Shown piece by piece: positions 16,874 to 28,720 of a stretch of DNA of 64,000 nt. Position 1 is the stretch's first letter. Each line of letters opens with the position of its first letter. Both the position numbers and the translations under genes were made by a program. Below the pieces are notes generated by a model, which made no database searches, was not told where the DNA came from, and saw only the letters and a list, made by a program, of their open reading frames with translations. This DNA is from an uncultured bacterium (lineage in GTDB: Bacteria > Omnitrophota > Omnitrophia > Omnitrophales > Aquincolibacteriaceae). The stretch lies in NCBI GenBank assembly GCA_964434115.1, contig CAYSSX010000002.1:9680-73679 (forward strand), written 5' to 3'.

Positions 16874-18250
16874 ATGCGAGGCATCACCCTCGAAGGTAAA
16901 AAAGAATCCACCCTTATCACCTGGACGCTGAAGCGTCTGCGCAACCCTGTTCGTGTCCGCATTTCTCTCAAGCAAGGCCCGCTGGATAAAACCACGGCTT
17001 GCGTTCGTCACGATGATTTGGTCAAAGCCGGCCAGAAAATCGCGGAACCCGCCGACTCTTTTTCCGTTCCCCTGCACGCCAGTGTTTCCGGACGCGTGAT
17101 TACCGTAGGCTCATTCCCGCATCCGACCCTCGATTCCTGCGATGCTATTGAGATTGTGGGGGACGGCAAGCATGAAACCGTTCCGGGTGTGGGAACCGAA
17201 CGTCATGGGTGGGATTTGCTTTCGCCTGATTCACTGACCGCGCTGTTTCGTGAAATGGGGCTTGTGAGCCTGACGCCCGGTATGGTTCCTTTGCATGTTC
17301 TTATTGAAGATGCTCGGCAGCACAAAATCCACACGCTTGTCATCAATGCCTGCGAGCCCGAGCCGTATGTGACAAGCGATCACTCCCTGATGATGTCGCA
17401 TCCGCTTGAAATTCTGAAAGGGGCGGAACTTCTTCGCCACGCCTGCGGCGCTGAAAAAGTGATCATCGCCCTTCAGGAAGACAAGATGCAGGTGGCTGAA
17501 CTTTTCAAAAGCAAAATTTATTTTTTGAAATGGGAGAATATTGAAGTCCGGGTTCTTCCATCAAAGTTTCCGCAGGGACTTTCACTGCCGCTGCTTCACG
17601 CGCTTTTTGGTCTGAAAATAAATTTCCCCCGGGAAGCCCAGGCCGAGGAGCCGGAACAGGCCGTTGAGCTTGGCTTGGCGAAAGAGTTTCACCGTCAAGG
17701 ACTCGCGCTTCAGGCTGTTGCAACAGCCTATGCTGTCTATGAGGCCGTGGTTTTGCAAAAACCTCTTTATGAAAGACCGGTCACCGTGGCGGGGGAATGC
17801 GTGATGGAGCCGAAAAATCTTTGGCTTCCGATGGGACTCAGCCTTCAGGATTCTTTCAAATCCGCGCGGGGCTTAATGAGGGAACCCGGAAAGGTTGTGA
17901 TGGGCGGTCCCATGCTGGGTTGGGAGCAGGAAGCTCTGGAGGCTCCGATTCTTAAAGGTACGACCGCGCTTTTGGCTTTGCCGAAAGAAGTGACTTTTGT
18001 TCCTGAAGTGACTGCCTGTACTCATTGCGGACGATGCGTGGAGATTTGTCCTTCCGAGATTTCCCCTGTGATGATTACGCTTGCCGCGGAGCAGGGCCTT
18101 TATGAAGAATCTCAGGCCTGGGGTGCTCTTGACTGCATCCGCTGCGGCAACTGCACGTACATTTGTCCCGCAAAACGCCCCATGGCGGATCTCATCCGCG
18201 ACGCCCGGCAGAATCTTTTGCCGATCAAGCGCGAAAATCAAAAAGAATAA
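16874..18250 (+). CDS. RnfC-like protein with two C-terminal 4Fe-4S cluster motifs and a degenerate flavin/NADH site
   Basis: Aligns to RnfC (..LVINACEPEPYVTSDHSLM..). C-terminal CTHCGRCVEICP and CIRCGNCTYICP motifs. The canonical GGAGFP motif is replaced by SLTPGMVPL. Confidence 0.7.
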   Translation: MRGITLEGKKESTLITWTLKRLRNPVRVRISLKQGPLDKTTACVRHDDLVKAGQKIAEPADSFSVPLHASVSGRVITVGSFPHPTLDSCDAIEIVGDGKHETVPGVGTERHGWDLLSPDSLTALFREMGLVSLTPGMVPLHVLIEDARQHKIHTLVINACEPEPYVTSDHSLMMSHPLEILKGAELLRHACGAEKVIIALQEDKMQVAELFKSKIYFLKWENIEVRVLPSKFPQGLSLPLLHALFGLKINFPREAQAEEPEQAVELGLAKEFHRQGLALQAVATAYAVYEAVVLQKPLYERPVTVAGECVMEPKNLWLPMGLSLQDSFKSARGLMREPGKVVMGGPMLGWEQEALEAPILKGTTALLALPKEVTFVPEVTACTHCGRCVEICPSEISPVMITLAAEQGLYEESQAWGALDCIRCGNCTYICPAKRPMADLIRDARQNLLPIKRENQKE

Positions 18251-19590
18251 TTCATTTCCCCGATATAAAGATTTTCAGGCATGCCGTATTCTTCATGAGG
18301 GCCGCCGGCGTAAAGCTGGGCCGCCAGCGTCAGGAGCAAGTTGCTTCGGAGTTCATAGCGGAGTTCCGGGCGAAGGAAAAGGCTCGTGTCATCCATGTTT
18401 AAAATCAGCCGGTGCTCAAAGCGAAGCAGTGAGGTGATGTTGTAGCCCATCAAAAGGGCGCTGTAATTTTTCGCAAGCTGCTGGATGTCCCCGTCGATGA
18501 AGCGAGCGACTTCGTAATCGTCCGTATTTCTCCGTCCCTCACCATTAAAATGATATTCCAAAAGCCCATAGACGTTGTGCGGAAAGTTGTAGTCCGCGTT
18601 TAAAGTAAACTTGATAAAGTCCCGCCCCTGATCGACTTCCCGGTAGAGGAACTCCCCGCGGACCGCAGAACTTTTAACATTTCCCTGAAAGTCAAAGCCG
18701 AGCGCATGATCCCGCTGAATACGGCCTCCGAGAACACCCATTTCAAAACCATAAATATCCTTTGAGATGCGGCCCAAATAGCGCTGAGGGTGGAGATCGC
18801 GGCCGCGGGGTGTGTAAATAAACTGCCATTTCATGTCCGCGAAATTTTTCGCGATCATGTTGACGGCATCCACGCCATCCCGTTCTTCAAGTTCAATCTG
18901 GGTGGGGCTGAAGGGATTGAATAAGTCGGTGGGGGTGAAGAAGTGGCCGACCCCCCAGGGAATCTGCTGACGTCCGATTTCTACCGAGAAATCATTGTTT
19001 TCATAAACCACGCTGGCCCGGTACAGGCGGTGTTCATAAAGAGCGCCGTGTTCTTCGACAAGATCCTGGCTGAGATCCAGGAACTGGCGCTTTTCGCTCA
19101 GGTTGTGGGCCATCCTGAAATCCCCGGATCCGACAAAGCTCCCGAAGGACGCTCCGTGATCGTAATCCACCTTCACCGTGACCCTGTGATTTTCTTTGAC
19201 GTCCCAGGTGCTTTTGAGTTTGAGGCGGATTCTTTCCATGCTGGAGAAAAGGCTCTCTCTTTTTTCTCCTCCGGCCAAAGGATTGTCCGCAAGCTCTGGT
19301 GTGAGTCCCGTGGTTTTGGTGAAAAAGTTCAAGGTTTTGATATACCCCGAAAGGTGGGTGTCGAGGGGCGCCTCGCCGGCAAAAACCCAGGCCGGAACAA
19401 GGGCAGCAAGTGAAAGCGCCGCGGTTAACCAAAAACGAAGAGGCAGTCTTGCCGAGGGCTTTCTTTTGAGACTCCCGGAAAAATTGGAATCAAGAAGTTC
19501 GGGCACCGCGGCGGGAGAATTTTTGAGTTCAAGGGCATCGTGAAGAATCGAACCCCGTTTTAAATCTTCCCGGATTTTTCCAGGCATCAT
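18238..19590 (-). CDS. Outer-membrane beta-barrel protein (C-terminal aromatic residue), last gene of the minus-strand operon
   Basis: Signal-peptide-like segment LTAALSLAALVPAWVFA. Alternating amphipathic strands. Ends ..EMNYSF. True start uncertain (long N-terminal lead before the signal peptide). 4-nt overlap with the upstream ATPase. Confidence 0.5.
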   Translation of the reverse strand: MMPGKIREDLKRGSILHDALELKNSPAAVPELLDSNFSGSLKRKPSARLPLRFWLTAALSLAALVPAWVFAGEAPLDTHLSGYIKTLNFFTKTTGLTPELADNPLAGGEKRESLFSSMERIRLKLKSTWDVKENHRVTVKVDYDHGASFGSFVGSGDFRMAHNLSEKRQFLDLSQDLVEEHGALYEHRLYRASVVYENNDFSVEIGRQQIPWGVGHFFTPTDLFNPFSPTQIELEERDGVDAVNMIAKNFADMKWQFIYTPRGRDLHPQRYLGRISKDIYGFEMGVLGGRIQRDHALGFDFQGNVKSSAVRGEFLYREVDQGRDFIKFTLNADYNFPHNVYGLLEYHFNGEGRRNTDDYEVARFIDGDIQQLAKNYSALLMGYNITSLLRFEHRLILNMDDTSLFLRPELRYELRSNLLLTLAAQLYAGGPHEEYGMPENLYIGEMNYSF

Positions 19591-20270
19591 GAAACAATCG
19601 CTCCGTCCTGCATGCGGATCACCCGCTCCGCCCGTTCAATCATCACCGGGTCATGACTGGCGTAAACAAACGTCATGCCTTCTTTCTTATTTAATTCTTT
19701 GAGAAAATCCATGAGCGTTGCGCCGGTTTTGTGATCAAGGTTAGCGGTCAATTCATCACCCAAAACAATTTTAGGTTTGTGCACAATAGCCCGGGCAACG
19801 GCCACACGCTGCTGCTGGCCCCGGCTAAGCTCGGCAGGTCTCCGGCCGATCAATTTTTCAATGCCAAAGCGGGCGCAGACTTCCAGGGCGCGCTGGCGGC
19901 GTTCCTGGGGGCCAACCCCCTGGAGCCAAAGAACGTATTCCACATTCTCAAGAGCGGACAAAGTTGGAATAAGATTGAAATCCTGAAAAATAAAACCAAT
20001 TTTGTGCAGGCGAAGCCGCGAAAGTTTCCCTTGATCATAGCGGCTGATTTCTTCGCCGTCGAGAAAAACCTCCCCGGAAGTGGGGCGGTCCAGACATCCG
20101 ATTAAATTAAGAAGTGTGGTTTTGCCTGAACCGGAAGGTCCGCAGAAGGCAACAAAGGAACCCGCGGCGATGGAAGTCGAGACTTCCTGCAGGGCCTGCA
20201 CCGGAAGGGAGTGTCCGGTAAAAACCTTCGATAATTTTTTAACTTCGACAAGAGGCTGTGTCATGGTCAC
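19587..20270 (-). CDS. ABC transporter ATP-binding protein, LolD/MacB type
   Basis: Walker A GPSGSGKTT, LSRGQQQRVAVARA signature, Walker B at VLGDELTANLD, about 227 aa. Confidence 0.85.
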   Translation of the reverse strand: MTMTQPLVEVKKLSKVFTGHSLPVQALQEVSTSIAAGSFVAFCGPSGSGKTTLLNLIGCLDRPTSGEVFLDGEEISRYDQGKLSRLRLHKIGFIFQDFNLIPTLSALENVEYVLWLQGVGPQERRQRALEVCARFGIEKLIGRRPAELSRGQQQRVAVARAIVHKPKIVLGDELTANLDHKTGATLMDFLKELNKKEGMTFVYASHDPVMIERAERVIRMQDGAIVS

Positions 20271-21490
20271 GAATGATAAATCGCTTTAACAGGTTCCATC
20301 CGCCCCGCTTTCCAGGCCGGATAAAGACTGATCAGGGTTGTTAAACTGAGAAGCGTTAAAACCGATTGGATGACGTGTGCGGGTTCAACCCGTGTATAGG
20401 TGACAGTGCTCATGTAGGAGCGCGAGAAAGCGGCCTCAAGCTCGGGAAAGGCAATGCCGGTGACACCGAAGTAGCCCACGACCGAATAACCGGCGAGAAG
20501 CCCCAAAAGAATGCCCCAGCATTCGAGAACAATAGTTTCAAGAAGAATGAGCCCGATGATGCGGCCCGGGCTTGTCCCTAGCGCGAGCATAACACCGATC
20601 TCACGGGTTCTTTCAAAAACAGACATCAGAACCGTATTCATGATGCTGACGCCAATCACCACCATGACCGCGACGAGAATGGTTTTGATAATGGCTTCCG
20701 CCCACTGGGCCCACTGTTCCACTTCCGGTACAATTTGATCCCAGGTTAAAAGCTCATAATCTTTTTCACTGACAAAGGGACGGAACGCTTTAATAAAGGC
20801 GCTGATATGTTTTCTCGAATCCAGGCGAAAGACCATTTCATGAGTGTCCTGGCCAAGCCCCAGCAATTCCTGCGCGGATTCCAGCGTGATGTAGGCGGCG
20901 ATCTCATCCACCTGCTGGCTGCCGGTGTGAAGAATTCCGGCAATGTGATAAGAGTAGCCCGCCAGAGTTCCGTCCAAGGCTTGGGTCATGACGACCAGTT
21001 TGTCGCCCACGCCCGCTTCCATGCGCTTGGCAAGCCTTGAACCGATGAGGATAGAGCGCTTGTCCTCCTTTGTTAAGTAGGCGCCTTCCCGGACATACTG
21101 TTCAAGCTGGGTGACTTTCTTTTCCTGATCCGGATCGATTCCCATGAGAAGAACCCCGCGGGAACGTTCACTGGTCCCTAAAAGCGCCTCGCATTTCGCG
21201 CGTTCCGTGTAGGTTACAAAACCCGGAAGTTTTGAGGCGTTTTTGAGAAGGGCCTCACGGTTTGGAATAATCAGTTCGGGTGAAAGGGCTTTTTCAAAAC
21301 CCGCGGCGTGAACTTGGACGTGGCCGGTATAGAGGCGTATGACATTCTCACGCATTTGTTCATTGGTACCGTCGCTGAAACCCCACAGGAAGATCAGGGC
21401 GGCAAGGCCAACGCCCACGGCAAGAACCGTGATCACGGAACGCCGGGGGTTACGGCCGATGTTTAAAAACGCGAGTTTGAGTAAAAACAT
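20267..21490 (-). CDS. FtsX/MacB/LolCE-family ABC transporter permease
   Basis: N-terminal TM, large periplasmic domain, three C-terminal TM helices. 407 aa, typical of LolC/E-MacB permeases. Confidence 0.8.
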   Translation of the reverse strand: MFLLKLAFLNIGRNPRRSVITVLAVGVGLAALIFLWGFSDGTNEQMRENVIRLYTGHVQVHAAGFEKALSPELIIPNREALLKNASKLPGFVTYTERAKCEALLGTSERSRGVLLMGIDPDQEKKVTQLEQYVREGAYLTKEDKRSILIGSRLAKRMEAGVGDKLVVMTQALDGTLAGYSYHIAGILHTGSQQVDEIAAYITLESAQELLGLGQDTHEMVFRLDSRKHISAFIKAFRPFVSEKDYELLTWDQIVPEVEQWAQWAEAIIKTILVAVMVVIGVSIMNTVLMSVFERTREIGVMLALGTSPGRIIGLILLETIVLECWGILLGLLAGYSVVGYFGVTGIAFPELEAAFSRSYMSTVTYTRVEPAHVIQSVLTLLSLTTLISLYPAWKAGRMEPVKAIYHS

Positions 21491-22425
21491 CAGGGGTATT
21501 TTTCAAGGTTTGACTTCGTGAAAAGGGAATCAGGGATTTCTTGATCAAAGGCGGCTTCCTGAATCGTGACGGTGGTGGAGCGGTCCTTATCCTTGTGATT
21601 GGACATCTTCCACACGGTCGGGATCTCATGAGTTCCGAAAGATTTGAAATCAGAATATTCCAAGGTCCGGATGTGAACGAGCTTTTCATTAAAAAAGTCC
21701 CAGCGTACAGGCGCGGAATCTTTTTGCCGGAGCCACACCACGAGCTTTCCGTAAGTGACAGGAGCATCGGGTTTGGGAATGAGTTCAAGGCGGTAGCAGT
21801 CAAACCCATCGATCTTTTCTTCCCCGGCAACGGAACCGTCATAATCGCGGGGCATATAGCTCAGCTTCACAAAATCATCATTGGAGAAGTCGCTGCCCAT
21901 AAAATCATCAAGCATGAGTGACGGGGGGATAAGGATGGTGCGCTCCGCAGACGGCAGGTATTGCCATAGCCGTGACTGAACTCTGAGAAAGCCCTGGCCT
22001 TCCGACTTGGAAGGGGAGAGAACGCGCGCAAATGTATAATCGATGCCCTTCATCCAGACCCGGATTTTGTAATCACGCTCCCAGCGCGAAGTCTTCACGT
22101 GAAGAACAACCGTCATGTCATGCGATTTTCCGCGGAGAACCTCGTCCATTTGAGCCAAAAGTATCTTTATGTCCGGCTGCGGCTCTGCGGCAGAGGCCGT
22201 GTCTTGGGTGCTCAAGACAGGCGCATTTGGGGTAACAAGGCTGCTTTCCAAAGCAACAGCCTTAGCCTCCGGCTCTGTTTGAACCGGAGCTTGAGATTGC
22301 GTTGGAGCTGGAGCCGCCGGTGTCGGCGGAACCGGAAGAGGCTGCTGTGGCGGACGACGGAAATAAAAAAAACAGGCCGCAGCAATAGCGGCTAAGACGG
22401 CTAGCAGTAACCAATTTTTTTTCAT
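21490..22425 (-). CDS. Periplasmic LolA-like (outer-membrane lipoprotein-sorting-like) protein with a Pro/Ala/Gln-rich linker
   Basis: Signal peptide, low-complexity PPQQPLPVPPTPAAPAPTQ linker, then a beta-rich domain resembling the LolA-like fold family. Overlaps neighbouring genes by 1-4 nt. Confidence 0.45.
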   Translation of the reverse strand: MKKNWLLLAVLAAIAAACFFYFRRPPQQPLPVPPTPAAPAPTQSQAPVQTEPEAKAVALESSLVTPNAPVLSTQDTASAAEPQPDIKILLAQMDEVLRGKSHDMTVVLHVKTSRWERDYKIRVWMKGIDYTFARVLSPSKSEGQGFLRVQSRLWQYLPSAERTILIPPSLMLDDFMGSDFSNDDFVKLSYMPRDYDGSVAGEEKIDGFDCYRLELIPKPDAPVTYGKLVVWLRQKDSAPVRWDFFNEKLVHIRTLEYSDFKSFGTHEIPTVWKMSNHKDKDRSTTVTIQEAAFDQEIPDSLFTKSNLEKYP

Positions 22426-23351
22426 AGGGCCGCCTCGACTTCCTTCTTAGTTTTTATAGAAGCCGCTTGAGAGACGGTTTTTTTTCGAGAGGGAAGGAAG
22501 AATTTTAGAACAATCCATTTTTTCAGGCGCATCAAGGGACTCCGCATACCCTGAGGGTAAGTTCTTATCACTGTTTTCTGGGTCATGAGGTCGGTTTGAT
22601 AAACCGTTGGAGCAAACGCTGTTTTTCTTTTGCCCGTCAGGTGTTTGACGGCTTCGGTTCCCGTAATAGCGCCGACCAGCATAAGCCCCGGCGAAACACT
22701 TGAGGCGCGCCGGCTTCCGAGCTCGGAAGCGCGCGAGTTCATATAAGACAGGCACAGAGGGGTTGGGGACAGGCCGAAGGCGAAAGCGAAATTTTTATCC
22801 TCTTCCGAAAGTCCGGGGCGAAAGTCAAAGTACTCTTCAAAGGTCATACCTTGCGGAGAAAAAACAAGGAGCGAAGCGCCGAACCCGAGCGGACAAGAGG
22901 TGATAACAGTAAGCCCCTTTTCGCGGCTCTTGCGAAACAGAAGAAGTTTGGCCTCGAGCGCGAAAAAGTCGATGCCATCAATAACGAGGTCGGAGCCGTC
23001 AAGAAAAGAGCTGATGTTTTTCTCGTGGACACCTTCCGGAAAAAGTTCGACGTCAGCTTCAGGGTTAATGGAGAGGACCATGTCCCGAAGAACCGCGACT
23101 TTGGATTTTCCCAAAGAATCATGCGTTGCGCCGATTTGGCGGTTCAGGTTGGTCAATTCGAAGACGTCAGGGTCCGCGAATTTAAAGCGTGTGATTCCGA
23201 GGCGGGCCAAGGCCTGGGCCTGAAAACCGCCCGCTCCACCAAGTCCCGCAATGGCCACCGTGGACTGCCTTAACTTGGCCTGTTCTTCGTTGGTCAGCCA
23301 GCCAAGATTACGGTCAAAGGCCTGATCATAATCAAAAACTCCGGCAGGCAC
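22422..23351 (-). CDS. ThiF/MoeB/MccB-type E1-like adenylyltransferase
   Basis: IAGLGGAGG nucleotide-binding loop, NLNRQ catalytic motif, DxD region (LVIDGIDFF). C-terminal about 130 aa of unknown function. No CxxC pairs. Confidence 0.75.
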   Translation of the reverse strand: MPAGVFDYDQAFDRNLGWLTNEEQAKLRQSTVAIAGLGGAGGFQAQALARLGITRFKFADPDVFELTNLNRQIGATHDSLGKSKVAVLRDMVLSINPEADVELFPEGVHEKNISSFLDGSDLVIDGIDFFALEAKLLLFRKSREKGLTVITSCPLGFGASLLVFSPQGMTFEEYFDFRPGLSEEDKNFAFAFGLSPTPLCLSYMNSRASELGSRRASSVSPGLMLVGAITGTEAVKHLTGKRKTAFAPTVYQTDLMTQKTVIRTYPQGMRSPLMRLKKWIVLKFFLPSRKKTVSQAASIKTKKEVEAAL

Positions 23352-23439
23352 TGTGGTCTCCTTTAAATTAGGTATCGCAAAACGAAGCTTTAAAAAACAA
23401 AAAAGGACATTTGATAGCTTAAGGCAAGAGCCTTAATTG

Positions 23440-24576
23440 TCAATCCTTGTTTCCCATGTGCAAGCTCTCCTCAGGAAGTAAAAAACTTTCAAGAGGCCGT
23501 CTGAGGGAGCGGCCTCCAGCGGGAGAGGCATAGCCGATGCGGAAAAGCAGGATAAGTCCTTGCCAGGGTTTTAATCCAAAAAGGTAAGAGAACCGCGATT
23601 TCATGTTTTCCAGTTTTTTGCGTTGCTCGCCGGAAAGATCACGGCCATTGGTCAGCTCTGAATTAATCAGAAAAATAGGCAAAGCTTCCATGGGTTGAAA
23701 TGCAAGCCCTTGGGCTGTGGCTTCATGCCAGATGCGCTGCATGACTTCACCGCCCTGGACATAATGCTCCGGTGCTTTTCCGGGTGCCACAATAAGTCCG
23801 CAGGCCTGCGATGAGAGCATTTGCATCTTGGCGTAGAGATTAAAGGAAAAACTCATTCCCAAAGCGTTCAGGAATTGCAGGCGGTTCCAGGACCGGAGAA
23901 GCCCGAACATGAGACCCGCAGAAGGGCCGGCATCAAGACTCGTTAGCGGAAGCCCGTCACGTGTTTCCTCGGCCTCTTTATCCGAGAAGCGCATGACCTT
24001 CATAAGTTCCTGGTGAAGACGGAAAATCTCAAAACGAAGCTGGTCCGCTTCCCCGATTAAGGAGGCCATATCCCGGTAATGCGCAGTTCCTTGTTTTAGC
24101 CAGAGCAGCCGGTAACCGCGGTTGGGGTCCGATTGATTTTCCAAGGCCCGGAACACCGGGTCCGGAAGCGGAGCGGAAGACTTATAAAATTTACGGTTGG
24201 TGTGCCGCTTTTCCAGGAATTGCAAATGCGGGTGCTTATGCGCAGCGCCCGGCAGCCATTCCACGTGAATGGGTTTTAGGGGATGGTCCGTTTCCGGAAA
24301 ATAGTCGGCCCGGATGCCTGCTCCGAAAGCAGAAGCCGCAACGCGGATATTTTCAACAACTGCCCCCGCCGAAAGGTAAGGAGCCGCGTAACCCTCATCG
24401 CAGTAACTGGCAAGCAGTTCGGGATTCAGGAAAAGATCGACCCCGTTTTCAAGAATCCGGAATTTCCACGGCTGGAGGTTGTCGGCCGAAGGTGCCAAAA
24501 TACCTTTTTTTAAAATATCCAGAACCTGATTCCGGGTCAGCTTTGCATGCGCCGTTTTTTGAACTTCAGGAGTCAT
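23440..24576 (-). CDS. Two-domain nitroreductase-superfamily (FMN) protein, SagB-like dehydrogenase
   Basis: N-terminal APSADNLQPWKF nitroreductase signature. Second repeat begins at EKRHTNRKFY. 378 aa. Confidence 0.65.
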   Translation of the reverse strand: MTPEVQKTAHAKLTRNQVLDILKKGILAPSADNLQPWKFRILENGVDLFLNPELLASYCDEGYAAPYLSAGAVVENIRVAASAFGAGIRADYFPETDHPLKPIHVEWLPGAAHKHPHLQFLEKRHTNRKFYKSSAPLPDPVFRALENQSDPNRGYRLLWLKQGTAHYRDMASLIGEADQLRFEIFRLHQELMKVMRFSDKEAEETRDGLPLTSLDAGPSAGLMFGLLRSWNRLQFLNALGMSFSFNLYAKMQMLSSQACGLIVAPGKAPEHYVQGGEVMQRIWHEATAQGLAFQPMEALPIFLINSELTNGRDLSGEQRKKLENMKSRFSYLFGLKPWQGLILLFRIGYASPAGGRSLRRPLESFLLPEESLHMGNKD

Positions 24577-25832
24577 TAGGCCGCGCCCTCTTTTTTGACA
24601 TCGGTTGATTTTTCAGGGAAATCCAGGTCCGGGTAAAGCGATTGAAGAACGGCTTTATTTTTCTGAATAAGGTCCTGCTTGATGACACCCTCGAAAAGGT
24701 ATTTCGAAAACAAATCCGTGTCCCACGTCAGGTACCGGCCCAGCTCTTCAGGCGACATGGGATTGTTCAGAAAGTACAGGCCTGCCCCCTTGTGAATAGA
24801 CGCTGTCCGGATAACGTAATCAAGGTCCATGTGCATGAGAAGCGCGGGTTTTCCCTGAGCGCCCGGGTAAGAGCGCACAGGCCCCACGGCATCAAAATGC
24901 AGATAGCGGTAAAGGTCTTTGTGCTTGGGATGCATTCCGATCACGAGGTCGGTGATGCCGCCCATAGTTCTCGCATAATCAAAAAGAATTTTGAACATCC
25001 GGAAAGAGCCGGTTAATTTCTGGAAATCCGTGAGCGAGAAAGAATGGCGGGTGAAGGCCTCACCGTCAAGCGCAAGAAGTCCTACTTCGGCAAGCCTTCT
25101 GCCGGGTTTTCTCAGAGAAGCGATTTCCTCAGGGAAAATGGATTCGAGCGGCAGCCCGCAGCCAGAGTCGGTAATAAGGCTCACCGTGCCCGCAAGATTT
25201 CCATTTTTTTCGAGAAGGAAAGTCCGCGACTCCGGAAGAATACTGTAAAGCGAGTAGTGGAGGCCGCGTGAATTTTGAGCGCAGTAATTCTTCAGACGGT
25301 ATTCCCTGTAAACCAGCTCATAGGCCTTTTGAAGTTCTTCGGAAGTGACCGCTGTTCTGCAGCCGAAATTTTTCTCATTGCGTTCTGCCAGGCTGCAAAT
25401 TTTGTCAGCCATGAAATACATGATTTTTTCTTTATTGGAAAGCTGGCGAAGATTTTTAAATGCGATTCCGCATTCCATGGCCGTTTGGCCGTTGGATGAG
25501 GGATTGGCCCACACGATGACGCCTTCGAGACGCACGGTTTTTTCAATTTCCGGAAGTTTAATGTCGAGATCTACCTGGGTGCCGACAGCAACTTTGCGGT
25601 CGAGTGCGAGGCGGACTCCGTTCCGGGAGACATCGATCGAATGGGAATGAAACCAGGGAAAATTTGCGCCCTTGGGGCGGTACCGTACGGGAAGACTGAA
25701 AGAGATGCGTGCTTCCCGGCGTTTTTCAAGAAGCGGGTCAACACTTACAGGGGCAGGCTGGGTTTGACCAAAAACATTGTCTTCCAAAATCCCGATGCCC
25801 AGTTCCCAGTTCCACGCGGTGCTCAGTTTCAT
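24576..25832 (-). CDS. PilZ domain fused to GNAT-fold N-acyl amino acid synthase-like domain (FeeM/OlsB-like)
   Basis: PilZ motifs RREAR (RxxxR) and DVSRNG (DxSxxG). C-terminal about 250 aa has an N-acyltransferase-like pattern (YELVYREYRL.., acyl-HSL-synthase-like fold). First gene of the operon. Confidence 0.5.
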   Translation of the reverse strand: MKLSTAWNWELGIGILEDNVFGQTQPAPVSVDPLLEKRREARISFSLPVRYRPKGANFPWFHSHSIDVSRNGVRLALDRKVAVGTQVDLDIKLPEIEKTVRLEGVIVWANPSSNGQTAMECGIAFKNLRQLSNKEKIMYFMADKICSLAERNEKNFGCRTAVTSEELQKAYELVYREYRLKNYCAQNSRGLHYSLYSILPESRTFLLEKNGNLAGTVSLITDSGCGLPLESIFPEEIASLRKPGRRLAEVGLLALDGEAFTRHSFSLTDFQKLTGSFRMFKILFDYARTMGGITDLVIGMHPKHKDLYRYLHFDAVGPVRSYPGAQGKPALLMHMDLDYVIRTASIHKGAGLYFLNNPMSPEELGRYLTWDTDLFSKYLFEGVIKQDLIQKNKAVLQSLYPDLDFPEKSTDVKKEGAA

Positions 25833-26036
25833 GAAACCTCATTATCGGGTTCAGGGGGTTGAACGTCCCACAGGTCGCGGTTCACAAAGCGCTCAAAAGC
25901 TCCAAAACACACTTTTCTTGCTAAACTTAAGTCTACCCGCCCCTATTAGTTAATACAAGGAAGGGCCAAGGAAAAGACCTGGAGGTTGCATCTTGCATCC
26001 AGAATTGCTATTTTGAGCCATAAAAACCAGGAAATC

Positions 26037-26978
26037 ATGCCCCAAAACACCCTGAAAAACGCGCCCTATCTAAGAGCCAAAGAGACTTCCAGCCTTATGG
26101 CCTGGAAGAAAACAGCGGCCCTTCTGCCGCTCGTGGCAACGGCTGTTATCTTTTACCGGCTTCCGGGAATTTTGCTGATTTCAACGACCGTCATTTCAGC
26201 CTTGCTGGCGGAACGAATTTCCCGTTTTTATCTTCGGGCCAAGCCGTCTTTTCAAGATGGAAACTCTGTTTTAACCGGGCTTATTGTCGCATTGGTGGTT
26301 CCGGCGGGGCTTCCTCTTTGGATTGCTGCTTTGGGTGCGTTTATAGCCGTGGCCATCGGGAGTGAAGTCCTGGGAGGCCCTGGGCATTCCCCGCTGCCGC
26401 CGGCCATCACGGGATATCTTTTTCTCCTGGTGAGTTTTCCATTAGCCATGAGGCATTCCTTGGAACCCGGGTTTTTGGAGCCGGCAGCAATGCCTCTTGT
26501 CTGGCTGAAAGAAGGTGCCTTAGATGCTTTACCTGGTTGGGGTGAGATTCTTGCGCGGCCTATTGCAGGACCGATCGGAACTGTTTTTTTTCCAGCGCTG
26601 CTGATCAGCGCCGCCATTCTTATTTCTCAGCGGCTCATTTTTTGGGAAATGCCTTTTCTCTATCTTGCCGCAGCAGGCCTTGCGGCTTTTGGTTTTGGAG
26701 AAGATCCTATTTTAGTTCTCTTTTTGGGCCTGCCGATTTTTGCCGCGTTTTTTATTATTCCGGAGTCTCTGACCGCGCCGCATCACCGCCACAGTGTCCG
26801 TTTTTTCGCATTGTTTGCCGGTGTTTTAACTACGGTTCTTCGGCATGTCTCTTTCGCGTTTGATCCCGCGCTGTCGGCGATTTTTCTTTGCTCTTTCTTG
26901 GCCTCTTGGCTGGATGAAGCAGGACGTCCCGAACCGCGTAAACCGCGCCAGATATCCGGAGCAGAAAAGCCGGCATGA
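26037..26978 (+). CDS. RnfD/NqrB-like membrane subunit lacking the covalent-FMN threonine motif
   Basis: Aligns well to RnfD (LTGLIVALVVPAGLPLWIAALGAFIAVAIG.., ..ESLTAPHHRHSVRFFALFAG..). The position of the canonical SGAT reads GLPI. Start ATG 26037 with an AGGA upstream. Confidence 0.7.
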   Translation: MPQNTLKNAPYLRAKETSSLMAWKKTAALLPLVATAVIFYRLPGILLISTTVISALLAERISRFYLRAKPSFQDGNSVLTGLIVALVVPAGLPLWIAALGAFIAVAIGSEVLGGPGHSPLPPAITGYLFLLVSFPLAMRHSLEPGFLEPAAMPLVWLKEGALDALPGWGEILARPIAGPIGTVFFPALLISAAILISQRLIFWEMPFLYLAAAGLAAFGFGEDPILVLFLGLPIFAAFFIIPESLTAPHHRHSVRFFALFAGVLTTVLRHVSFAFDPALSAIFLCSFLASWLDEAGRPEPRKPRQISGAEKPA

Positions 26979-27700
26979 AGACAAAACGGAGAGAAAGTTT
27001 TTTAAAAGCAGTTTTTTTTGTGCTGTACCTGGCGGTTCTTTCTGCGGGCATTCTGGCTTCCCGGATGTTTGCCCTTCCTGAAAGGGCTCCCGTCTCTTCG
27101 GAATTGGCATGGAAAGAGGGTGTGAAAGAACTGCTTCCAGCGCATGACAACTCTCCCCTGAAGGATGTCTTTTCTCTTGATGGCCGGGAAGTGTTCCCGG
27201 CTTTTCAGATCAAAGCCCATGAGGATGACGAGGGGCAGCTGCTTGAATTTTTTGACCTTAAGGGCGTTGCCTTTCGTGTTGAAGGGAAGGGGCCTTACGG
27301 CAGCTACGACTTGCTGCTAGGAATCGACACCGAAGGACGTGTGAAAGGCGTTCGCTTGATACGGCAGAATGAACCGCGCGGGGTCAGCCTGGCGGTTGAA
27401 AAATCGGCGGCTTTTTGGGAAAGTTTTAAAGATAAAAGCCGGGAGGATTTGTCGCTCCTCATGGATGGCGGAAAAATTGTGCCGGTTCTTGGAGCCGTGG
27501 AAGTGTCCCGCCGTTATACGGAAGCGATTAAAGAGGAGATTGAAAAATACCTTGCGGCAAAGCAGGTTTGGAAAGAGCAGGCTATGGGCTCCCGCCGCTC
27601 TTTCGAAGATCTCAAAAAACTTGAAGACGCCGAAAGCCAGCCGGTTCCGGCAAACCCCGAGGAAGGAAACAATGAAGCTTTTCTCTCCCGAGTATTCTGA
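26975..27700 (+). CDS. RnfG/NqrC-like FMN_bind domain protein (flavinylation Thr replaced)
   Basis: N-terminal TM plus periplasmic FMN_bind-like domain. The canonical S/TGAT region reads LGAVEVS. Overlaps rnfD and rnfE-like genes. Confidence 0.5.
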   Translation: MKTKRRESFLKAVFFVLYLAVLSAGILASRMFALPERAPVSSELAWKEGVKELLPAHDNSPLKDVFSLDGREVFPAFQIKAHEDDEGQLLEFFDLKGVAFRVEGKGPYGSYDLLLGIDTEGRVKGVRLIRQNEPRGVSLAVEKSAAFWESFKDKSREDLSLLMDGGKIVPVLGAVEVSRRYTEAIKEEIEKYLAAKQVWKEQAMGSRRSFEDLKKLEDAESQPVPANPEEGNNEAFLSRVF

Positions 27701-28208
27701 CAATTCAGCCTCAAGGGTTTTTTTGGCCTGCGCTCCCGTGTTGTTCTTTACGGGCAGCCCGGGGGAGTCCCTCTGGCTGAGTCTCTGGATTGCGTGTGCC
27801 CTTCTCGGGATGGTTTTATTTTTTACGCTGACGGCCTTTTGGTTTTCCGCCAAAGTCCGGCAGACAGCTTTCTTTCTGGGACTCGCCGTCGTTGTGCAGT
27901 GCCTGTTTCGGATCCAGGGACTTCATCCCGTGCTGATCGCGAGTCTTTTTCTTTTGATGCCAGCGCGCCTTTTTTCTTCGGGGCAAAGAGTTCCGGTGCT
28001 CAGGCAGTCCTTTTTAAGAGCACTTTTTTTTGTCGTGGTCATGGGGCTCATCGGCGCCTTTCGGGAACTTCTTGGGGAGCGCTTTTTGGTGTGGTCTTTC
28101 CGGCTTCCCGCCGGGGCGTTTTTTCTTCTGTTTGCCGGCGCCTTTCTTTGGAAAAATCAGCCTGCGTTGAGCGGCGCAGAGAGTTCGAATCGGGAGGTCC
28201 GGGCATGA
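27672..28208 (+). CDS. RnfE/NqrD-like membrane subunit
   Basis: LxxCPxL-like N-terminal motif (RVFLACAPVLF), six TM segments. Internal ATG of ORF 27369..28208. Confidence 0.5.
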   Translation: MKLFSPEYSDNSASRVFLACAPVLFFTGSPGESLWLSLWIACALLGMVLFFTLTAFWFSAKVRQTAFFLGLAVVVQCLFRIQGLHPVLIASLFLLMPARLFSSGQRVPVLRQSFLRALFFVVVMGLIGAFRELLGERFLVWSFRLPAGAFFLLFAGAFLWKNQPALSGAESSNREVRA

Positions 28209-28720
28209 GCGAAGAAGTTTTTTTAATCATTGCCGCCGGTTTCTTTCTTTCTCTGGAGCCTGGTTCTGAACTCGGGACACCCCGGTGGACGCTGATTCTT
28301 CAGAACCGTTTCTGTGAAGCCGTTGAGATTTTTTTACATGCGGCGGTCTTAATCCTTTTTCACGAACGCTTAATCAGTCTTTTGGGGGCTGAAGAAATCC
28401 GCACCTTTTTCCCGCTTTTTTATATGCTGGGAGCCTATGTTTTTGTTCTCCTGAGAGCTAAAAGCGCGCGGTTCCTCATGCTTTCCTGGATGACCGGTCT
28501 TTTTTTTACGGGGAACCATGCCGGCCTTCGTGAGACCCTCCAGCACCTTGCAGTGATGACTGCGGCGTCCGGCGCTTCGGCCTTGCTTTTATTGTGTGCT
28601 CAAAGGCGTCAGATTTTCTCCCGCGTTCCGGCGGTGGTGAAAGGACTCCCCCAGATCTTCCTTTTGGCGGCGTTTCTCGCCCTCGCCCTCGGATCCCTTG
28701 AGGGCTTCCTCGGTTTTTAA
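28205..28720 (+). CDS. RnfA/NqrE-like membrane subunit
   Basis: Paralog of the preceding gene, hydrophobic 171 aa. Internal ATG of ORF 27794..28720 overlapping the previous stop (ATGA). Confidence 0.5.
   Translation: MSEEVFLIIAAGFFLSLEPGSELGTPRWTLILQNRFCEAVEIFLHAAVLILFHERLISLLGAEEIRTFFPLFYMLGAYVFVLLRAKSARFLMLSWMTGLFFTGNHAGLRETLQHLAVMTAASGASALLLLCAQRRQIFSRVPAVVKGLPQIFLLAAFLALALGSLEGFLGF

What the first reader, a model, noticed from the sequence alone, without database searches (positions are those of the whole stretch)
18238..25832. Seven-gene translationally coupled operon: PilZ-acyltransferase fusion + two-domain nitroreductase + E1 adenylase + LolA-like/MacB-like ABC/OM-barrel export set
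On the minus strand, seven ORFs run head to tail with 1-4 nt overlaps and a single 88-nt gap. In order they are: a PilZ-GNAT (N-acyl amino acid synthase-like) fusion; a two-repeat nitroreductase-superfamily protein; a ThiF/MoeB/MccB-type E1 with an intact GxGxxG and NLNRQ; a LolA-like periplasmic protein with a Pro-rich linker; an FtsX/MacB-type permease; a LolD/MacB-type ATPase; and an outer-membrane barrel. No YcaO partner is present, so this is not a canonical TOMM cassette. The combination suggests a c-di-GMP-gated pathway. An N-acyl amino acid (or small acylated molecule) would be made, its carboxylate adenylated by the E1 enzyme, modified by an FMN oxidoreductase, and then handed to a Lol/Mac-like envelope exporter. 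I cannot place this gene combination in any described pathway.
Basis: partly seen in the sequence, partly recalled or inferred. Interest (0 to 1): 0.8.

Follow-up and report, generated by a model that had tools for sequence, protein, structure and literature searches.

The report
Acyl-amino-acid lipid operon with its exporter
This seven-gene operon from an uncultured Omnitrophota bacterium joins a recently described three-enzyme pathway, which turns a fatty-acylated amino acid into an oxazolone-type lipid, to a cyclic-di-GMP sensor domain and a dedicated four-protein exporter to the outer membrane; the chemistry is known, but the sensor-plus-exporter packaging has not been described.

Summary
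Seven minus-strand ORFs span 18238-25832, with 1- or 4-nt overlaps and one 88-nt gap, and all seven domain calls hold.

For genes 1-3 that is wrong. [quoted passage not shown]

Three features differ from the described clusters:
- An N-terminal PilZ domain with intact c-di-GMP-binding motifs is fused to the synthase. Only the reverse domain order has been reported.
- A translationally coupled export set follows: a LolA_like carrier, a single MacB/LolC-type permease, an ATPase, and an 18-strand outer-membrane barrel. I show the barrel to be a remote DUF1302 relative.
- The host is Omnitrophota.

The seven genes recur in the same order in three related MAGs and rearranged in a fourth. The synthase-plus-exporter core recurs with swapped tailoring enzymes or an MMPL pump, and without PilZ in a Thermodesulfobacteriota MAG.

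Best reading: a c-di-GMP-gated lipoamino-acid envelope or surface lipid with its own Lol-like exporter. The product, the gating and the transport are all inferred. I rate it a new variant of a known kind, of moderate interest.

The parts
25833..25985 (-). 153-nt divergent intergenic region between g1 and rnfD. It is the presumed promoter region of the operon.
   Evidence: Sequence read. The sigma-70 consensus scan found no site here and nothing above chance in the whole region, so the promoter is not identified.
24576..25832 (-). g1: PilZ-N-acyl amino acid synthase fusion (418 aa).
   Evidence: Pfam FeeM E 4.7e-35 and PilZ E 2.8e-14. PDB FeeM 2g0b E 1.6e-12, with g1 E249 aligned to the FeeM catalytic Glu in the 'LAEV' motif. 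E249 is invariant in 25 homologues.
25437..25727 (-). PilZ domain of g1 (residues 36-132), carrying RxxxR (R38, R42) and DxSxxG (D67, S69, G72).
   Evidence: for the domain. In one search, R38 and R42 are at least 90% conserved, and S69 and G72 are invariant.
24825..25328 (-). FeeM/NAS catalytic domain of g1 (residues 169-336).
23440..24576 (-). [quoted passage not shown]
   Evidence: NCBIfam PRK14851 E 8e-64, Rv1355c family model positions 365-718 E 1.5e-60, and Acg family E 4e-42. The AF2 model has pLDDT 93.9. Its best PDB match is the Acg homologue 2ymv over the full length, E 6.7e-16, TM 0.70/0.80. R124 and R128 (RHTNRKF) are invariant.
23352..23439 (-). 88-nt g2-g3 spacer with a Shine-Dalgarno sequence (AAGGAG) 7 nt before the GTG start. 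It also holds a weak hairpin (AAGGC-TCTT-GCCTT) and a T-run.
   Evidence: The terminator scan did not flag it.
22422..23351 (-). g3: ThiF-like ATP-dependent adenylating enzyme, predicted cyclodehydratase (309 aa). It carries GxGxxG (G36-G41), NLNRQ (68-72) and DGID (125-128), has only two cysteines and no CxxC zinc motif.
   Evidence: Pfam ThiF E 2.9e-42. NF006077 333 bits (cutoff 266). The ThiF halves of the ThiF-nitroreductase fusion models score PRK14851 266 bits and PRK14852 218 bits, against at most 92 bits for ThiF, MoeB or TcdA models. The best solved relative is TcdA, an oxazolone-forming t6A dehydratase.
21490..22425 (-). g4: LolA_like (PF17131) periplasmic lipid-carrier candidate. 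It has an N-terminal hydrophobic signal or anchor and a Pro-rich linker of about 80 aa.
   Evidence: Pfam LolA_like E 1.1e-49, residues 129-309. Sequence.
20267..21490 (-). g5: type VII ABC permease (MacB_PCD periplasmic domain plus FtsX transmembrane domain). It is a single gene, so presumably a homodimer.
   Evidence: Pfam FtsX E 4.4e-18 and MacB_PCD E 9.3e-16. lolCE TIGR02212 scores 132 bits, below its cutoff of 362.
19587..20270 (-). g6: ABC ATPase of the LolD / MacB / DevA type.
   Evidence: ABC_tran E 2.5e-31. LolD TIGR02211 scores 204 bits, below its cutoff of 307.75. DevA scores 188 bits.
18238..19590 (-). g7: outer-membrane 18-strand-type beta-barrel, a remote member of the DUF1302 kind. 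The signal-peptide-like segment lies at about residues 48-71.

Best explanation
The operon encodes a self-contained system for making and exporting a lipoamino-acid-derived lipid.

Proposed steps:
1. g1 N-acylates an amino acid from acyl-ACP or acyl-CoA. By analogy the amino acid is probably aromatic. The N-terminal PilZ domain makes this first committed step responsive to c-di-GMP.
2. g3, a ThiF-like enzyme, adenylates the free carboxylate. The amide oxygen then attacks and closes a 5(4H)-oxazolone ring.
3. g2, an Acg/TyzC-type flavin oxidase, introduces the alpha,beta double bond. The result is an unsaturated N-acyl oxazolone or, after ring opening, an N-acyl dehydro-amino acid.
4. The amphiphile partitions into the inner membrane. 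The g5 (two copies) / g6 (two copies) type VII ABC machine extracts it, hands it to the LolA_like carrier g4, and g4 delivers it to the DUF1302-like barrel g7 for insertion into, or release from, the outer membrane.

Shown here: gene order and coupling, domain identities, conserved catalytic and ligand-binding motifs, predicted folds, and recurrent co-localisation in other genomes.

Inferred by homology: every chemical step, the identity of the amino acid and acyl chain, the c-di-GMP effect, the direction of transport and the cargo.
For: (1) The trio matches the experimentally characterised pathway architecture.
- FeeM-fold synthase with its catalytic Glu conserved.
- g3 scores 266 and 218 bits on the ThiF halves of the ThiF-nitroreductase fusion families, against at most 92 bits on ThiF, MoeB or TcdA models.
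- g2 covers the whole FDO half of the Rv1355c (TrzS) family model, E 1.5e-60, and folds like Acg.
- NCBIfam PRK14852 is a natural fusion of all three.
- Fused ThiF-FDO ORFs lie beside FeeM genes in L025, L050, L051 and L052.
- The biochemistry of the homologues is in PMC10404671, PMC12856293, bioRxiv 10.1101/2020.06.11.147165 and PMC12596934.

(2) The PilZ motifs RxxxR and DxSxxG are intact and conserved across the family. An independent NAS-PilZ fusion, Nas354, makes N-acyltyrosines (PMC4897644).

(3) The export set is linked to the biosynthetic genes.
- Overlapping stop and start codons run through g3-g7.
- The full seven-gene set is kept in L001, L005 and L024, and rearranged in L008.
- L054 has two PilZ-FeeM genes and ThiF facing NTR, ABC, FtsX, LolA_like and DUF1302.
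- L002 keeps PilZ-FeeM, ThiF, LolA_like and DUF1302 but swaps the ABC pump for MMPL and the FDO for radical-SAM and lyase genes.
- L004 keeps PilZ-FeeM with LolA_like, FtsX, ABC and a g7-like gene, with AMP-ligase and SDR tailoring instead.
- L034, from another phylum, has ABC, FtsX, LolA_like, DUF1302, ThiF and NTR divergent from two FeeM genes.

(4) g7 is a confident barrel with an Occ/AlgE-like fold and is a remote DUF1302 homologue. DUF1302 barrels are known to pair with LolA-superfamily proteins (PMC13499233, PMC6394551).

(5) A computationally predicted analogue exists in Borrelia: a type VII ABC, a LolA-like protein and an outer-membrane barrel proposed to move a non-polar ligand (PMC13078400).
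Against: - No product, binding or transport data exist for any member of this Omnitrophota family.
- I could not align g2 or g3 directly with TyzC, TyzB, OxzB or TrzS, because those sequences were not retrievable. Placement in their exact clade rests on NCBIfam family models.
- The characterised FDO step needs O2 (PMC10404671, PMC12856293). Related clusters occur in Desulfospira and Thermodesulfobacteriota MAGs, lineages I know as anaerobes. The window does encode heme o synthase and SCO1/SenC, which point to a haem-copper oxidase.
- In stieleriacine-type producers no oxazolone has been seen despite ThiF being present (PMC12479983), so the end product may be the open dehydro form.
- Co-localisation is not universal. 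About half of the 25 distinct PilZ-FeeM loci showed no LolA_like gene within the available flank. Many of those contigs are short, but L055 and L056 are true stand-alone copies.
- No diguanylate cyclase or phosphodiesterase gene lies in the window.
Confidence: 0.6

Rival explanations
1. The chemistry starts the same way but ends differently. The ThiF-generated acyl-adenylate or oxazolone is only an activated intermediate. The exported molecule is an open-chain N-acyl dehydro-amino acid (stieleriacine- or thalassotalic-acid-like surfactant or signal), or a conjugate formed when the activated carboxylate is captured by another nucleophile.
For: Producers of N-acyl dehydrotyrosines carry the same NAS, ThiF and nitroreductase trio, yet no oxazolone was detected in them (PMC12479983, read). 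Oxazolones are hydrolytically labile and need special quenching to be seen (PMC12856293). N-acyl tyrosines are surfactants and are found in supernatants (PMC4897644).
Against: In the three reconstituted systems (OxzAB, TyzACB, TrzAS) the oxazolone is the product. Nothing in the operon encodes a hydrolase or a second transferase.
Confidence: 0.2
2. The two halves are functionally separate. g1-g3 make an intracellular or freely diffusing lipoamino acid. g4-g7 are a housekeeping Lol-like lipoprotein or other hydrophobe transport system that merely shares a transcript.
For: The best NCBIfam models for g5 and g6 are LolCE and LolD. The g7 family (97 hits at E <= 0.001) and the g2 family (203 hits at E <= 1e-5) returned more hits than the g1 family (67 hits at E <= 1e-5). 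Some PilZ-FeeM genes stand alone.
Against: g5 and g6 fall far below the LolCE and LolD equivalog cutoffs (132 vs 362 bits; 204 vs 308 bits). g4 is PF17131, not canonical LolA. The exporter stays with FeeM/ThiF genes through rearrangements, strand changes and pump swaps (ABC to MMPL), and across two phyla. That pattern is hard to explain without a functional link.
Confidence: 0.1
3. The system works inwards or as detoxification. The barrel, LolA_like protein and ABC take up or expel an exogenous hydrophobic compound, as proposed for some DUF1302/DUF1329/RND sets, and g1-g3 modify it.
For: DUF1302/DUF1329 genes give fitness phenotypes on fatty esters in Pseudomonas, and the AmeABCD set is linked to monoterpene tolerance.
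Against: From general knowledge of the class, type VII (MacB/LolC-type) ABC machines are extractors or exporters, not importers. FeeM-type synthases build N-acyl amino acids from cellular acyl donors (PMC10404671, PMC4897644). No catabolic genes are present.
Confidence: 0.05
4. This is a peptide or protein modification system (MccB/PaaA-type RiPP, TOMM-like, or E1-type conjugation/defence) with an ABC exporter.
For: g3 shows superfamily-level similarity to MccB, PaaA and E1-E2 defence proteins. The nitroreductase fold is also used by TOMM dehydrogenases.
Against: - Those matches are weak, at most about 50 bits and Rossmann region only, against 266-333 bits for the ThiF-FDO families.
- No YcaO, no E2 or JAB, and no ubiquitin-like or precursor-peptide ORF is present. 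The 88-nt gap encodes nothing longer than 6 aa.
- g3 lacks the CxxC zinc motifs of protein-activating ThiF/MoeB.
Confidence: 0.03

Closest known systems
TyzACB of Mycobacterium tuberculosis (N-acyl tyrazolone pathway; PMC10404671)
   Same: [quoted passage not shown] The sizes and split architecture match g1 (catalytic part), g3 and g2.
   Different: TyzA has no PilZ domain and is transcribed divergently. The neighbouring transporter is an MmpL (mmpL9), and its involvement is untested. The host is an actinobacterium with a mycomembrane.
OxzAB of Pseudoalteromonas rubra and TrzAS of mycobacteria (bioRxiv 10.1101/2020.06.11.147165; PMC12856293)
   Same: The chemistry is the same: acyltransferase, then ATP-dependent cyclisation and flavin-dependent desaturation. 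g2 aligns over the whole FDO half of the Rv1355c/TrzS family model (E 1.5e-60). g3 matches that model only over profile positions 90-225 of its ThiF half (E 5.5e-18).
   Different: In those systems ThiF and FDO are fused into one protein, and there are two genes only, with no regulator domain and no exporter. Fused versions also occur in relatives of this locus (L025, L050, L051).
N-acyl dehydrotyrosine clusters (stieleriacines, thalassotalic and kyonggic acids; PMC12479983)
   Same: They combine NasY-type NAS, a ThiF family protein and a nitroreductase family protein in operon-like order with overlapping ORFs. They occur in Planctomycetota, which with Omnitrophota belongs to the PVC group (my own knowledge).
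   Different: They have methyltransferase tailoring, and no PilZ or exporter is reported. Their product is the open-chain dehydro acid.
Nas354 / Nas343 metagenomic N-acyltyrosine synthases (PMC4897644)
   Same: A NAS domain is covalently joined to a PilZ domain. The catalytic Glu is conserved. The authors proposed c-di-GMP regulation of N-acyl amino acid synthesis.
   Different: The domain order is reversed there (N-terminal NAS, C-terminal PilZ), so the two fusions are apparently independent. Those genes sit in proteobacterial-like DNA, without ThiF, FDO or exporter neighbours. Regulation was never tested.
DUF1302 / DUF1329 (LolA-superfamily) / RND sets of Pseudomonas and Castellaniella AmeABCD (PMC13499233; bioRxiv 10.1101/2020.07.04.188060; PMC6394551)
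   Same: An 18-strand Occ/AlgE-like outer-membrane barrel is paired with a LolA-superfamily periplasmic protein and an inner-membrane pump. A role in moving hydrophobic molecules is proposed. The L002 variant of this locus uses exactly DUF1302, LolA_like and MMPL.
   Different: Here the pump is a type VII ABC, not an RND. The carrier is PF17131, not DUF1329. The barrel is too diverged to pass the Pfam DUF1302 threshold (11.7 vs 23.2 bits). Here a biosynthetic cargo pathway is co-encoded.
LolCDE-LolA-LolB lipoprotein pathway, the Borrelia BBJ23-29 cluster (PMC13078400), and MacAB-TolC / DevBCA-HgdD
   Same: An ATP-driven type VII ABC extracts an acylated molecule from the inner membrane and hands it to a LolA-fold carrier. 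The single permease gene resembles LolF and BBJ27 homodimers. The Borrelia set likewise adds an outer-membrane barrel.
   Different: The Lol equivalog cutoffs are not met. There is no LolB. There is no membrane-fusion protein and no TolC-like duct, so this is not a MacAB or DevBCA tripartite pump. The barrel is DUF1302-like, not Omp85. The cargo is predicted to be a small lipoamino acid rather than a lipoprotein.

Membership tests
N-acyl oxazolone / N-acyl dehydro-amino-acid gene clusters (OxzAB, TyzACB, TrzAS type) | [quoted passage not shown] | tested here: met
   Pfam FeeM 121 bits. 2g0b E 1.6e-12, with E249 aligned to the FeeM catalytic Glu. E249 is invariant in A1. There is a 1-nt overlap with g2.
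N-acyl oxazolone / N-acyl dehydro-amino-acid gene clusters (OxzAB, TyzACB, TrzAS type) | A ThiF-like enzyme adjacent or fused to the FDO, of the clade found in ThiF-FDO fusions rather than the sulfur-carrier E1s. | tested here: met
   g3 scores 266 bits on PRK14851 and 218 bits on PRK14852 (fusion families), against at most 92 bits on ThiF, MoeB or TcdA models. It is 40% identical to the ThiF halves of fused ORFs in L050 and L051. It has no CxxC zinc motif.
N-acyl oxazolone / N-acyl dehydro-amino-acid gene clusters (OxzAB, TyzACB, TrzAS type) | A flavin-dependent oxidase of the nitroreductase superfamily: single chain, two lobes, Acg-like. | tested here: met
   NF005901 (Rv1355c family) positions 365-718, E 1.5e-60. 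Acg family E 4e-42. The AF2 model's best match is the Acg homologue 2ymv, TM 0.70/0.80.
N-acyl oxazolone / N-acyl dehydro-amino-acid gene clusters (OxzAB, TyzACB, TrzAS type) | Functional residues shown by mutagenesis in TrzS: the ThiF adenylation Asp (D217), and FDO Arg540 and Gln651. | tested here: inconclusive
   g3 has GxGxxG, NLNRQ and DGID motifs. g2 has invariant R124, R128, R196, R346 and R359. No residue-by-residue alignment to TrzS could be made because its sequence was not retrievable.
N-acyl oxazolone / N-acyl dehydro-amino-acid gene clusters (OxzAB, TyzACB, TrzAS type) | The product is an N-acyl oxazolone or dehydro-amino acid. | not testable with these tools
   This needs expression and LC-MS.
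PilZ c-di-GMP receptors | RxxxR and (D/N)xSxxG motifs in a PilZ beta-barrel. | tested here: met
   Pfam PilZ 53.7 bits (cutoff 22.5). R38/R42 and D67/S69/G72 are present and conserved across 25 homologues.
PilZ c-di-GMP receptors | Binds c-di-GMP and changes the output activity. | not testable with these tools
No GGDEF or EAL gene lies in the window.
LolCDE-LolA lipoprotein sorting system | LolC/LolE, LolD and LolA equivalogs. | tested here: not met
   lolCE TIGR02212 132 bits against a cutoff of 362. LolD TIGR02211 204 bits against 307.75. There is one permease gene only. g4 hits PF17131 LolA_like, and canonical LolA is not among its Pfam hits at E <= 0.01. No LolB is present.
MacAB-TolC / DevBCA tripartite pumps | A membrane-fusion (HlyD-type) adaptor and a TolC-type duct alongside the MacB-type ABC. 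| tested here: not met
   None of the seven products carries an MFP or OEP domain. g7 is an 18-strand-type barrel, not TolC-like.
DUF1302 (PF06980) outer-membrane barrels | Matches the Pfam model; 18-strand Occ/AlgE-like barrel; encoded next to a LolA-superfamily protein and an inner-membrane pump. | tested here: inconclusive
TOMM / YcaO azol(in)e cassettes and E1-E2 defence systems | A YcaO cyclodehydratase plus precursor peptide; or an E2/JAB partner with an E1. | tested here: not met
   No such domain was found among the operon genes or the roughly 40 flanking window ORFs that were scanned. PADLOC gives only hits of at most 50 bits to the E1 Rossmann region.

The most novel reading that the evidence does not exclude
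Omnitrophota, and some Thermodesulfobacteriota, possess a modular envelope-lipid system. A c-di-GMP-gated N-acyl amino acid synthase feeds interchangeable tailoring cassettes: ThiF plus FDO; radical-SAM plus lyase plus ThiF; or AMP-ligase plus SDR. The product is moved to the cell surface by a previously uncharacterised class of trans-envelope lipid exporter, made of a LolA_like carrier, a DUF1302-type barrel, and a type VII ABC or MMPL pump.

This would give the first defined cargo for the orphan DUF1302/LolA-like transporter class, which is also conserved in Pseudomonas. It would also give the first case of second-messenger control of a lipoamino-acid or oxazolone lipid, possibly with an FDO that works without O2.
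Probability: 0.35. Interest if true: 0.65.

Novelty: new variant of a known kind. Interest (0 to 1): 0.5.

Why it matters
The physiological role of bacterial N-acyl oxazolones and dehydro-amino-acid lipids is an open question. The authors of the TyzACB/TrzAS work say so explicitly (PMC12856293).

This operon hard-wires that chemistry to two informative partners. One is a c-di-GMP sensor, which points to control by the biofilm/motility lifestyle switch. The other is a trans-envelope lipid exporter, which points to an outer-membrane or surface destination. Together they give a concrete, testable hypothesis about where the lipids go and when they are made.

It also gives a candidate cargo for LolA_like/DUF1302-type transport sets. 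These are widespread, including in Pseudomonas aeruginosa, but have no assigned substrate.

Finally, it is one of few interpretable specialised-lipid loci in Omnitrophota, a phylum I know only from uncultured representatives.

Tried and rejected
- Rfam scan of the whole window: no RNA family, so no c-di-GMP riboswitch.
- Sigma-70 promoter and intrinsic terminator scan of 17900-26200: counts equal to shuffled expectation (4 vs 4.8; 16 vs 13.4). No operon boundaries can be claimed from it.
- Base composition: the operon (GC 0.51-0.52) matches its flanks, so there is no sign of recent horizontal insertion. The flanking synteny (bioD-mnmA-rnfC | operon | rnfD-rnfG ... pilT-like) is conserved in L001, L005 and L024, so the 'mobile island' idea was dropped.
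- Defence-system reading (E1-E2/CBASS-like): only generic hits. Rejected.
- RiPP/TOMM reading: no YcaO and no precursor ORF. Rejected.
- Canonical Lol system: cutoffs not met.
- Foldseek against AFDB50 was unavailable.
- Literature searches for PF17131/LolA_like, and for Omnitrophota together with acyl amino acids, returned nothing relevant. None of the 12 papers shown of the 85 hits in the NAS-plus-LolA/FtsX/MMPL search combined a NAS with such an exporter.
- I could not retrieve the TyzA/B/C, OxzA/B or TrzS sequences. The top 120 homologues of g2 contained no named mycobacterial protein. Clade membership therefore rests on NCBIfam models.
- The search of protein representatives was not used, because its output carries no names or genomic context and would not have changed the verdict.

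Full report

| Gene | Coordinates | Length |
|---|---|---|
| g1 | 24576-25832 | 418 aa |
| g2 | 23440-24576 | 378 aa |
| g3 | 22422-23351 | 309 aa |
| g4 | 21490-22425 | 311 aa |
| g5 | 20267-21490 | 407 aa |
| g6 | 19587-20270 | 227 aa |
| g7 | 18238-19590 | 450 aa |

Reading the junctions gives TAATG, an 88-nt gap, ATGA, TGATG, GTGA and ATGA. That is a 1- or 4-nt overlap everywhere except g2/g3. In that gap an AAGGAG Shine-Dalgarno sequence sits 7 nt before the GTG start of g3.

**Context.** The rest of the window is ordinary chromosomal housekeeping DNA. It holds sulfate assimilation and biotin synthesis genes, mnmA, polA, coaE, rho, prfA, murA-like, trmD, rnhB, accA and others. Its GC content matches that of the operon.

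The operon lies on the opposite strand between rnfC (TIGR01945, 305 bits) and divergent rnfD/rnfG genes. This odd split, with the same flanking genes, is conserved in three related contigs: L001, L005 and L024. It is therefore an old, stable arrangement and not a recent island.

The closest relatives of g1 are almost all from Candidatus Omnitrophota MAGs. The nearest species representative is 90% identical. The window is therefore most likely Omnitrophota.

**Genes 1-3.** Pfam and NCBIfam confirm every call.

- g1 is PilZ (residues 36-132) plus FeeM (residues 169-336). It matches the FeeM crystal structure sequence (2g0b, E 1.6e-12). Its invariant E249 aligns with the catalytic glutamate of FeeM and Nas354 (PMC4897644).
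- g3 is a ThiF-family protein with GxGxxG, NLNRQ and DGID motifs and no CxxC zinc site. It passes the NF006077 equivalog cutoff. It scores 266 and 218 bits on the ThiF halves of the two NCBIfam ThiF-nitroreductase fusion families, against at most 92 bits on ThiF, MoeB or TcdA models. Its nearest solved relative is TcdA, which itself makes an oxazolone ring by ATP-dependent cyclodehydration (PMC12596934).
- g2 covers the whole flavin-oxidase half of the Rv1355c family model (E 1.5e-60) and the Acg family model (E 4e-42). Its AlphaFold model (pLDDT 93.9) superposes over its full length on the Acg homologue 2ymv, the single-chain two-lobed nitroreductase fold.
- NCBIfam PRK14852 is a 989-aa natural fusion of FeeM, ThiF and nitroreductase, and all three proteins match it.

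**What the trio is.** A literature search shows that this trio is a described pathway:

- OxzA/OxzB of Pseudoalteromonas rubra (bioRxiv 10.1101/2020.06.11.147165).
- TyzA/TyzB/TyzC of M. tuberculosis (PMC10404671).
- TrzA/TrzS, where TrzS is Rv1355c (PMC12856293).

In these systems the acyltransferase N-acylates Tyr, Phe or Trp. The ThiF enzyme performs ATP-dependent cyclisation to a 5(4H)-oxazolone. The nitroreductase-superfamily flavin-dependent oxidase (FDO) performs an O2-dependent alpha,beta-desaturation. The same three genes mark N-acyl dehydrotyrosine (stieleriacine, thalassotalic and kyonggic acid) producers (PMC12479983).

The statement that no described pathway fits is wrong for genes 1-3.

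**The PilZ fusion.** The RxxxR (R38, R42) and DxSxxG (D67, S69, G72) motifs are present and conserved in 25 homologues, so the domain looks competent to bind c-di-GMP. A NAS-PilZ fusion has been published (Nas354 and Nas343, which make N-acyltyrosines). There the domain order is reversed, and regulation was only proposed (PMC4897644). The N-terminal PilZ arrangement found here is a separate family, seen almost only in Omnitrophota. Gating by c-di-GMP is a reasonable but untested inference. No GGDEF or EAL gene lies in the window.

**Genes 4-7.**

- g4 is a strong PF17131 LolA_like protein (E 1.1e-49), placed behind a hydrophobic N-terminus and a Pro-rich linker.
- g5 is a MacB_PCD plus FtsX permease, and g6 is its ATPase. 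Their best models are LolCE and LolD, but far below the equivalog cutoffs (132 vs 362 bits; 204 vs 308 bits).
- There is no membrane-fusion protein, no TolC and no LolB. The set is therefore neither canonical Lol nor a MacAB or DevBCA pump.
- g7 had no family hit. Its homologues (97 clusters, mostly Omnitrophota hypotheticals, none with a Pfam domain) gave an alignment that folds confidently into a beta-barrel (pLDDT 88.9).
- Profile-profile comparison shows g7 is a remote homologue of DUF1302. The probability is 98%, with E about 1e-13, against three bona fide DUF1302 proteins that occupy the same gene position in related loci. They share a GRQQIPWG-type motif.
- Published work describes DUF1302 as an 18-strand Occ/AlgE-like barrel that pairs with a LolA-superfamily protein (DUF1329) and an RND pump, with function still unknown (PMC13499233; bioRxiv 10.1101/2020.07.04.188060; PMC6394551).
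- A Borrelia cluster was recently predicted, in silico only, to move an unidentified non-polar ligand. It has a homodimeric type VII ABC, a LolA-like protein and an outer-membrane barrel (PMC13078400).

**Is the exporter tied to the biosynthesis?** Comparative evidence says yes:

| Locus | Arrangement |
|---|---|
| L001, L005, L024 | The seven genes in identical order (g1 57-90% identical) |
| L008 | g1 convergent with g2-g7 |
| L054 (=L010) | Two PilZ-FeeM genes and ThiF, facing NTR, ABC, FtsX, LolA_like and DUF1302 |
| L025 | Five PilZ-FeeM paralogues, fused ThiF-FDO genes, and ABC, FtsX, LolA_like |
| L002 | PilZ-FeeM, ThiF, LolA_like and DUF1302 kept; FDO replaced by two B12-radical-SAM genes and a beta-eliminating lyase; ABC pump replaced by MMPL |
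| L004 | PilZ-FeeM with LolA_like, FtsX, ABC and g7-like; tailoring by AMP-ligase and SDR |
| L034 (Thermodesulfobacteriota MAG) | ABC, FtsX, LolA_like, DUF1302, ThiF and NTR, divergent from two PilZ-less FeeM genes |

A link that survives strand flips, gene shuffling, pump replacement and a change of phylum is good evidence of a shared function.

It is not universal. Of 25 distinct PilZ-FeeM loci, 12 show a LolA_like gene in the available flank. Many of the remainder are short contigs, but L055 and L056 are true stand-alone genes beside sigma-54 two-component systems.

**Most likely mechanism.**

1. g1 makes an N-acyl amino acid under c-di-GMP control. The amino acid is probably aromatic, by analogy and because the L002 variant carries a tyrosine-phenol-lyase/tryptophanase-family gene. 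This is a weak inference.
2. g3 adenylates and cyclises it.
3. g2 desaturates it.
4. The resulting amphiphile sits in the inner membrane. The g5/g6 type VII ABC extracts it, the LolA_like g4 carries it, and the DUF1302-like barrel g7 passes it into or through the outer membrane.

My confidence by step:
- about 0.8 that genes 1-3 perform OxzAB/TyzACB-type chemistry;
- about 0.6 that g4-g7 export its product;
- about 0.5 that c-di-GMP gates it;
- about 0.6 overall.

The main caveats:
- No experimental data exist for this family.
- I could not align directly to TyzB, TyzC or TrzS.
- The end product may be the open dehydro acid rather than the oxazolone (PMC12479983).
- The characterised FDO step needs O2, while related clusters occur in Desulfospira and Thermodesulfobacteriota MAGs, lineages I know as anaerobes. 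The window does encode heme o synthase and SCO1/SenC, which suggest a haem-copper oxidase.

**Rejected readings.**
- RiPP, TOMM or E1-conjugation/defence: no YcaO, E2 or precursor, and only hits of at most 50 bits to the Rossmann region.
- Housekeeping Lol system: cutoffs not met and wrong carrier family.
- Mobile island: composition and synteny argue against it.
- Riboswitch control: no Rfam hit.

**Novelty and score.**
- The core chemistry is known.
- A PilZ-NAS fusion has a precedent in the reverse order.
- LolA-like/DUF1302-type sets are known as orphans.
- I found no description of their union in one translationally coupled operon, of its modular variants, or of its Omnitrophota distribution.

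I rate it a new variant of a known kind, interest 0.5. It is useful because it proposes a destination and a regulatory input for a lipid class whose function is openly unknown. It also proposes a cargo for an orphan transporter class.

Noticed in passing
window 16874-18250 (+), 25986-27700 (+), 27369-28720 (+): An Rnf-like cluster is split by the operon. rnfC passes its NCBIfam cutoff. rnfD (115 bits against a cutoff of 207) and rnfG-like (28-45 bits) are highly diverged. The two membrane ORFs that follow have no Pfam or NCBIfam hit, and no recognisable rnfE, rnfA or rnfB follows. The same split is conserved in L001, L005 and L024.
   Followed up: partly
window 18238-18250: The 3' ends of g7 (minus strand) and rnfC (plus strand) overlap by 13 nt, in convergent orientation.
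   Followed up: no
window 82-873 and 2632-3279: Heme o synthase (TIGR01473, 245 bits against a cutoff of 210) and a SCO1/SenC copper chaperone flank an ABC-2 transporter. This suggests a haem-copper terminal oxidase in a phylum I know mostly from anoxic habitats. It bears on whether the O2-dependent oxidase step is feasible.
   Followed up: partly
L002 1253-12003 (GCA_023818545.1, Omnitrophota): A variant cluster: PilZ-FeeM, two B12-binding radical-SAM proteins, ThiF, a beta-eliminating lyase (tyrosine phenol-lyase/tryptophanase family), LolA_like, DUF1302 and MMPL. It probably makes a differently tailored lipoamino acid with an RND-type exporter.
   Followed up: partly
L004 8465-18661 (GCA_016196545.1, Omnitrophota): Another variant: a PilZ-less FeeM gene divergent from PilZ-FeeM, then a VitK2_biosynth (MqnA-like) gene, an SDR, an AMP-binding ligase, LolA_like, FtsX, ABC and a g7-like barrel. 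A GGDEF gene lies at the edge of the locus.
   Followed up: no
L034 1-8576 (Thermodesulfobacteriota MAG): ABC, FtsX, LolA_like, DUF1302 (79.7 bits), ThiF and a nitroreductase cut by the contig end lie divergent from two FeeM genes that lack PilZ. The same biosynthesis-plus-export logic therefore occurs in a second phylum.
   Followed up: yes
L025 (five copies), L010/L054, L014-L019 (two copies each): PilZ-FeeM genes occur as tandem paralogue arrays of two to five copies. This suggests several acyl or amino-acid specificities feeding one tailoring and export set.
   Followed up: no
L055 and L056: Stand-alone PilZ-FeeM genes lie beside GAF histidine kinase and sigma-54 response-regulator pairs. 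L056 also lies about 9 kb from EpsI/exosortase genes. From my own recollection, N-acyl amino acid synthases have been linked to PEP-CTERM/exosortase systems.
   Followed up: no
L005 9992-11674: In the 90%-identical species representative, the g1 ORF runs on into the g2 region and only about half of g2 is matched. This looks like a frameshift or assembly error in that MAG.
   Followed up: no
window 41140-44077: An Omp85-superfamily gene (41140-42462) is followed by an overlapping 556-aa ORF (42407-44077) with no Pfam hit. It may be another uncharacterised envelope pair.
   Followed up: no
window 23352-23439: The only intergenic gap in the operon contains a small hairpin (AAGGC-TCTT-GCCTT) and a T-rich run before the g3 Shine-Dalgarno sequence. 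It might uncouple or attenuate expression between g1-g2 and g3-g7. The terminator scan did not flag it.
   Followed up: partly
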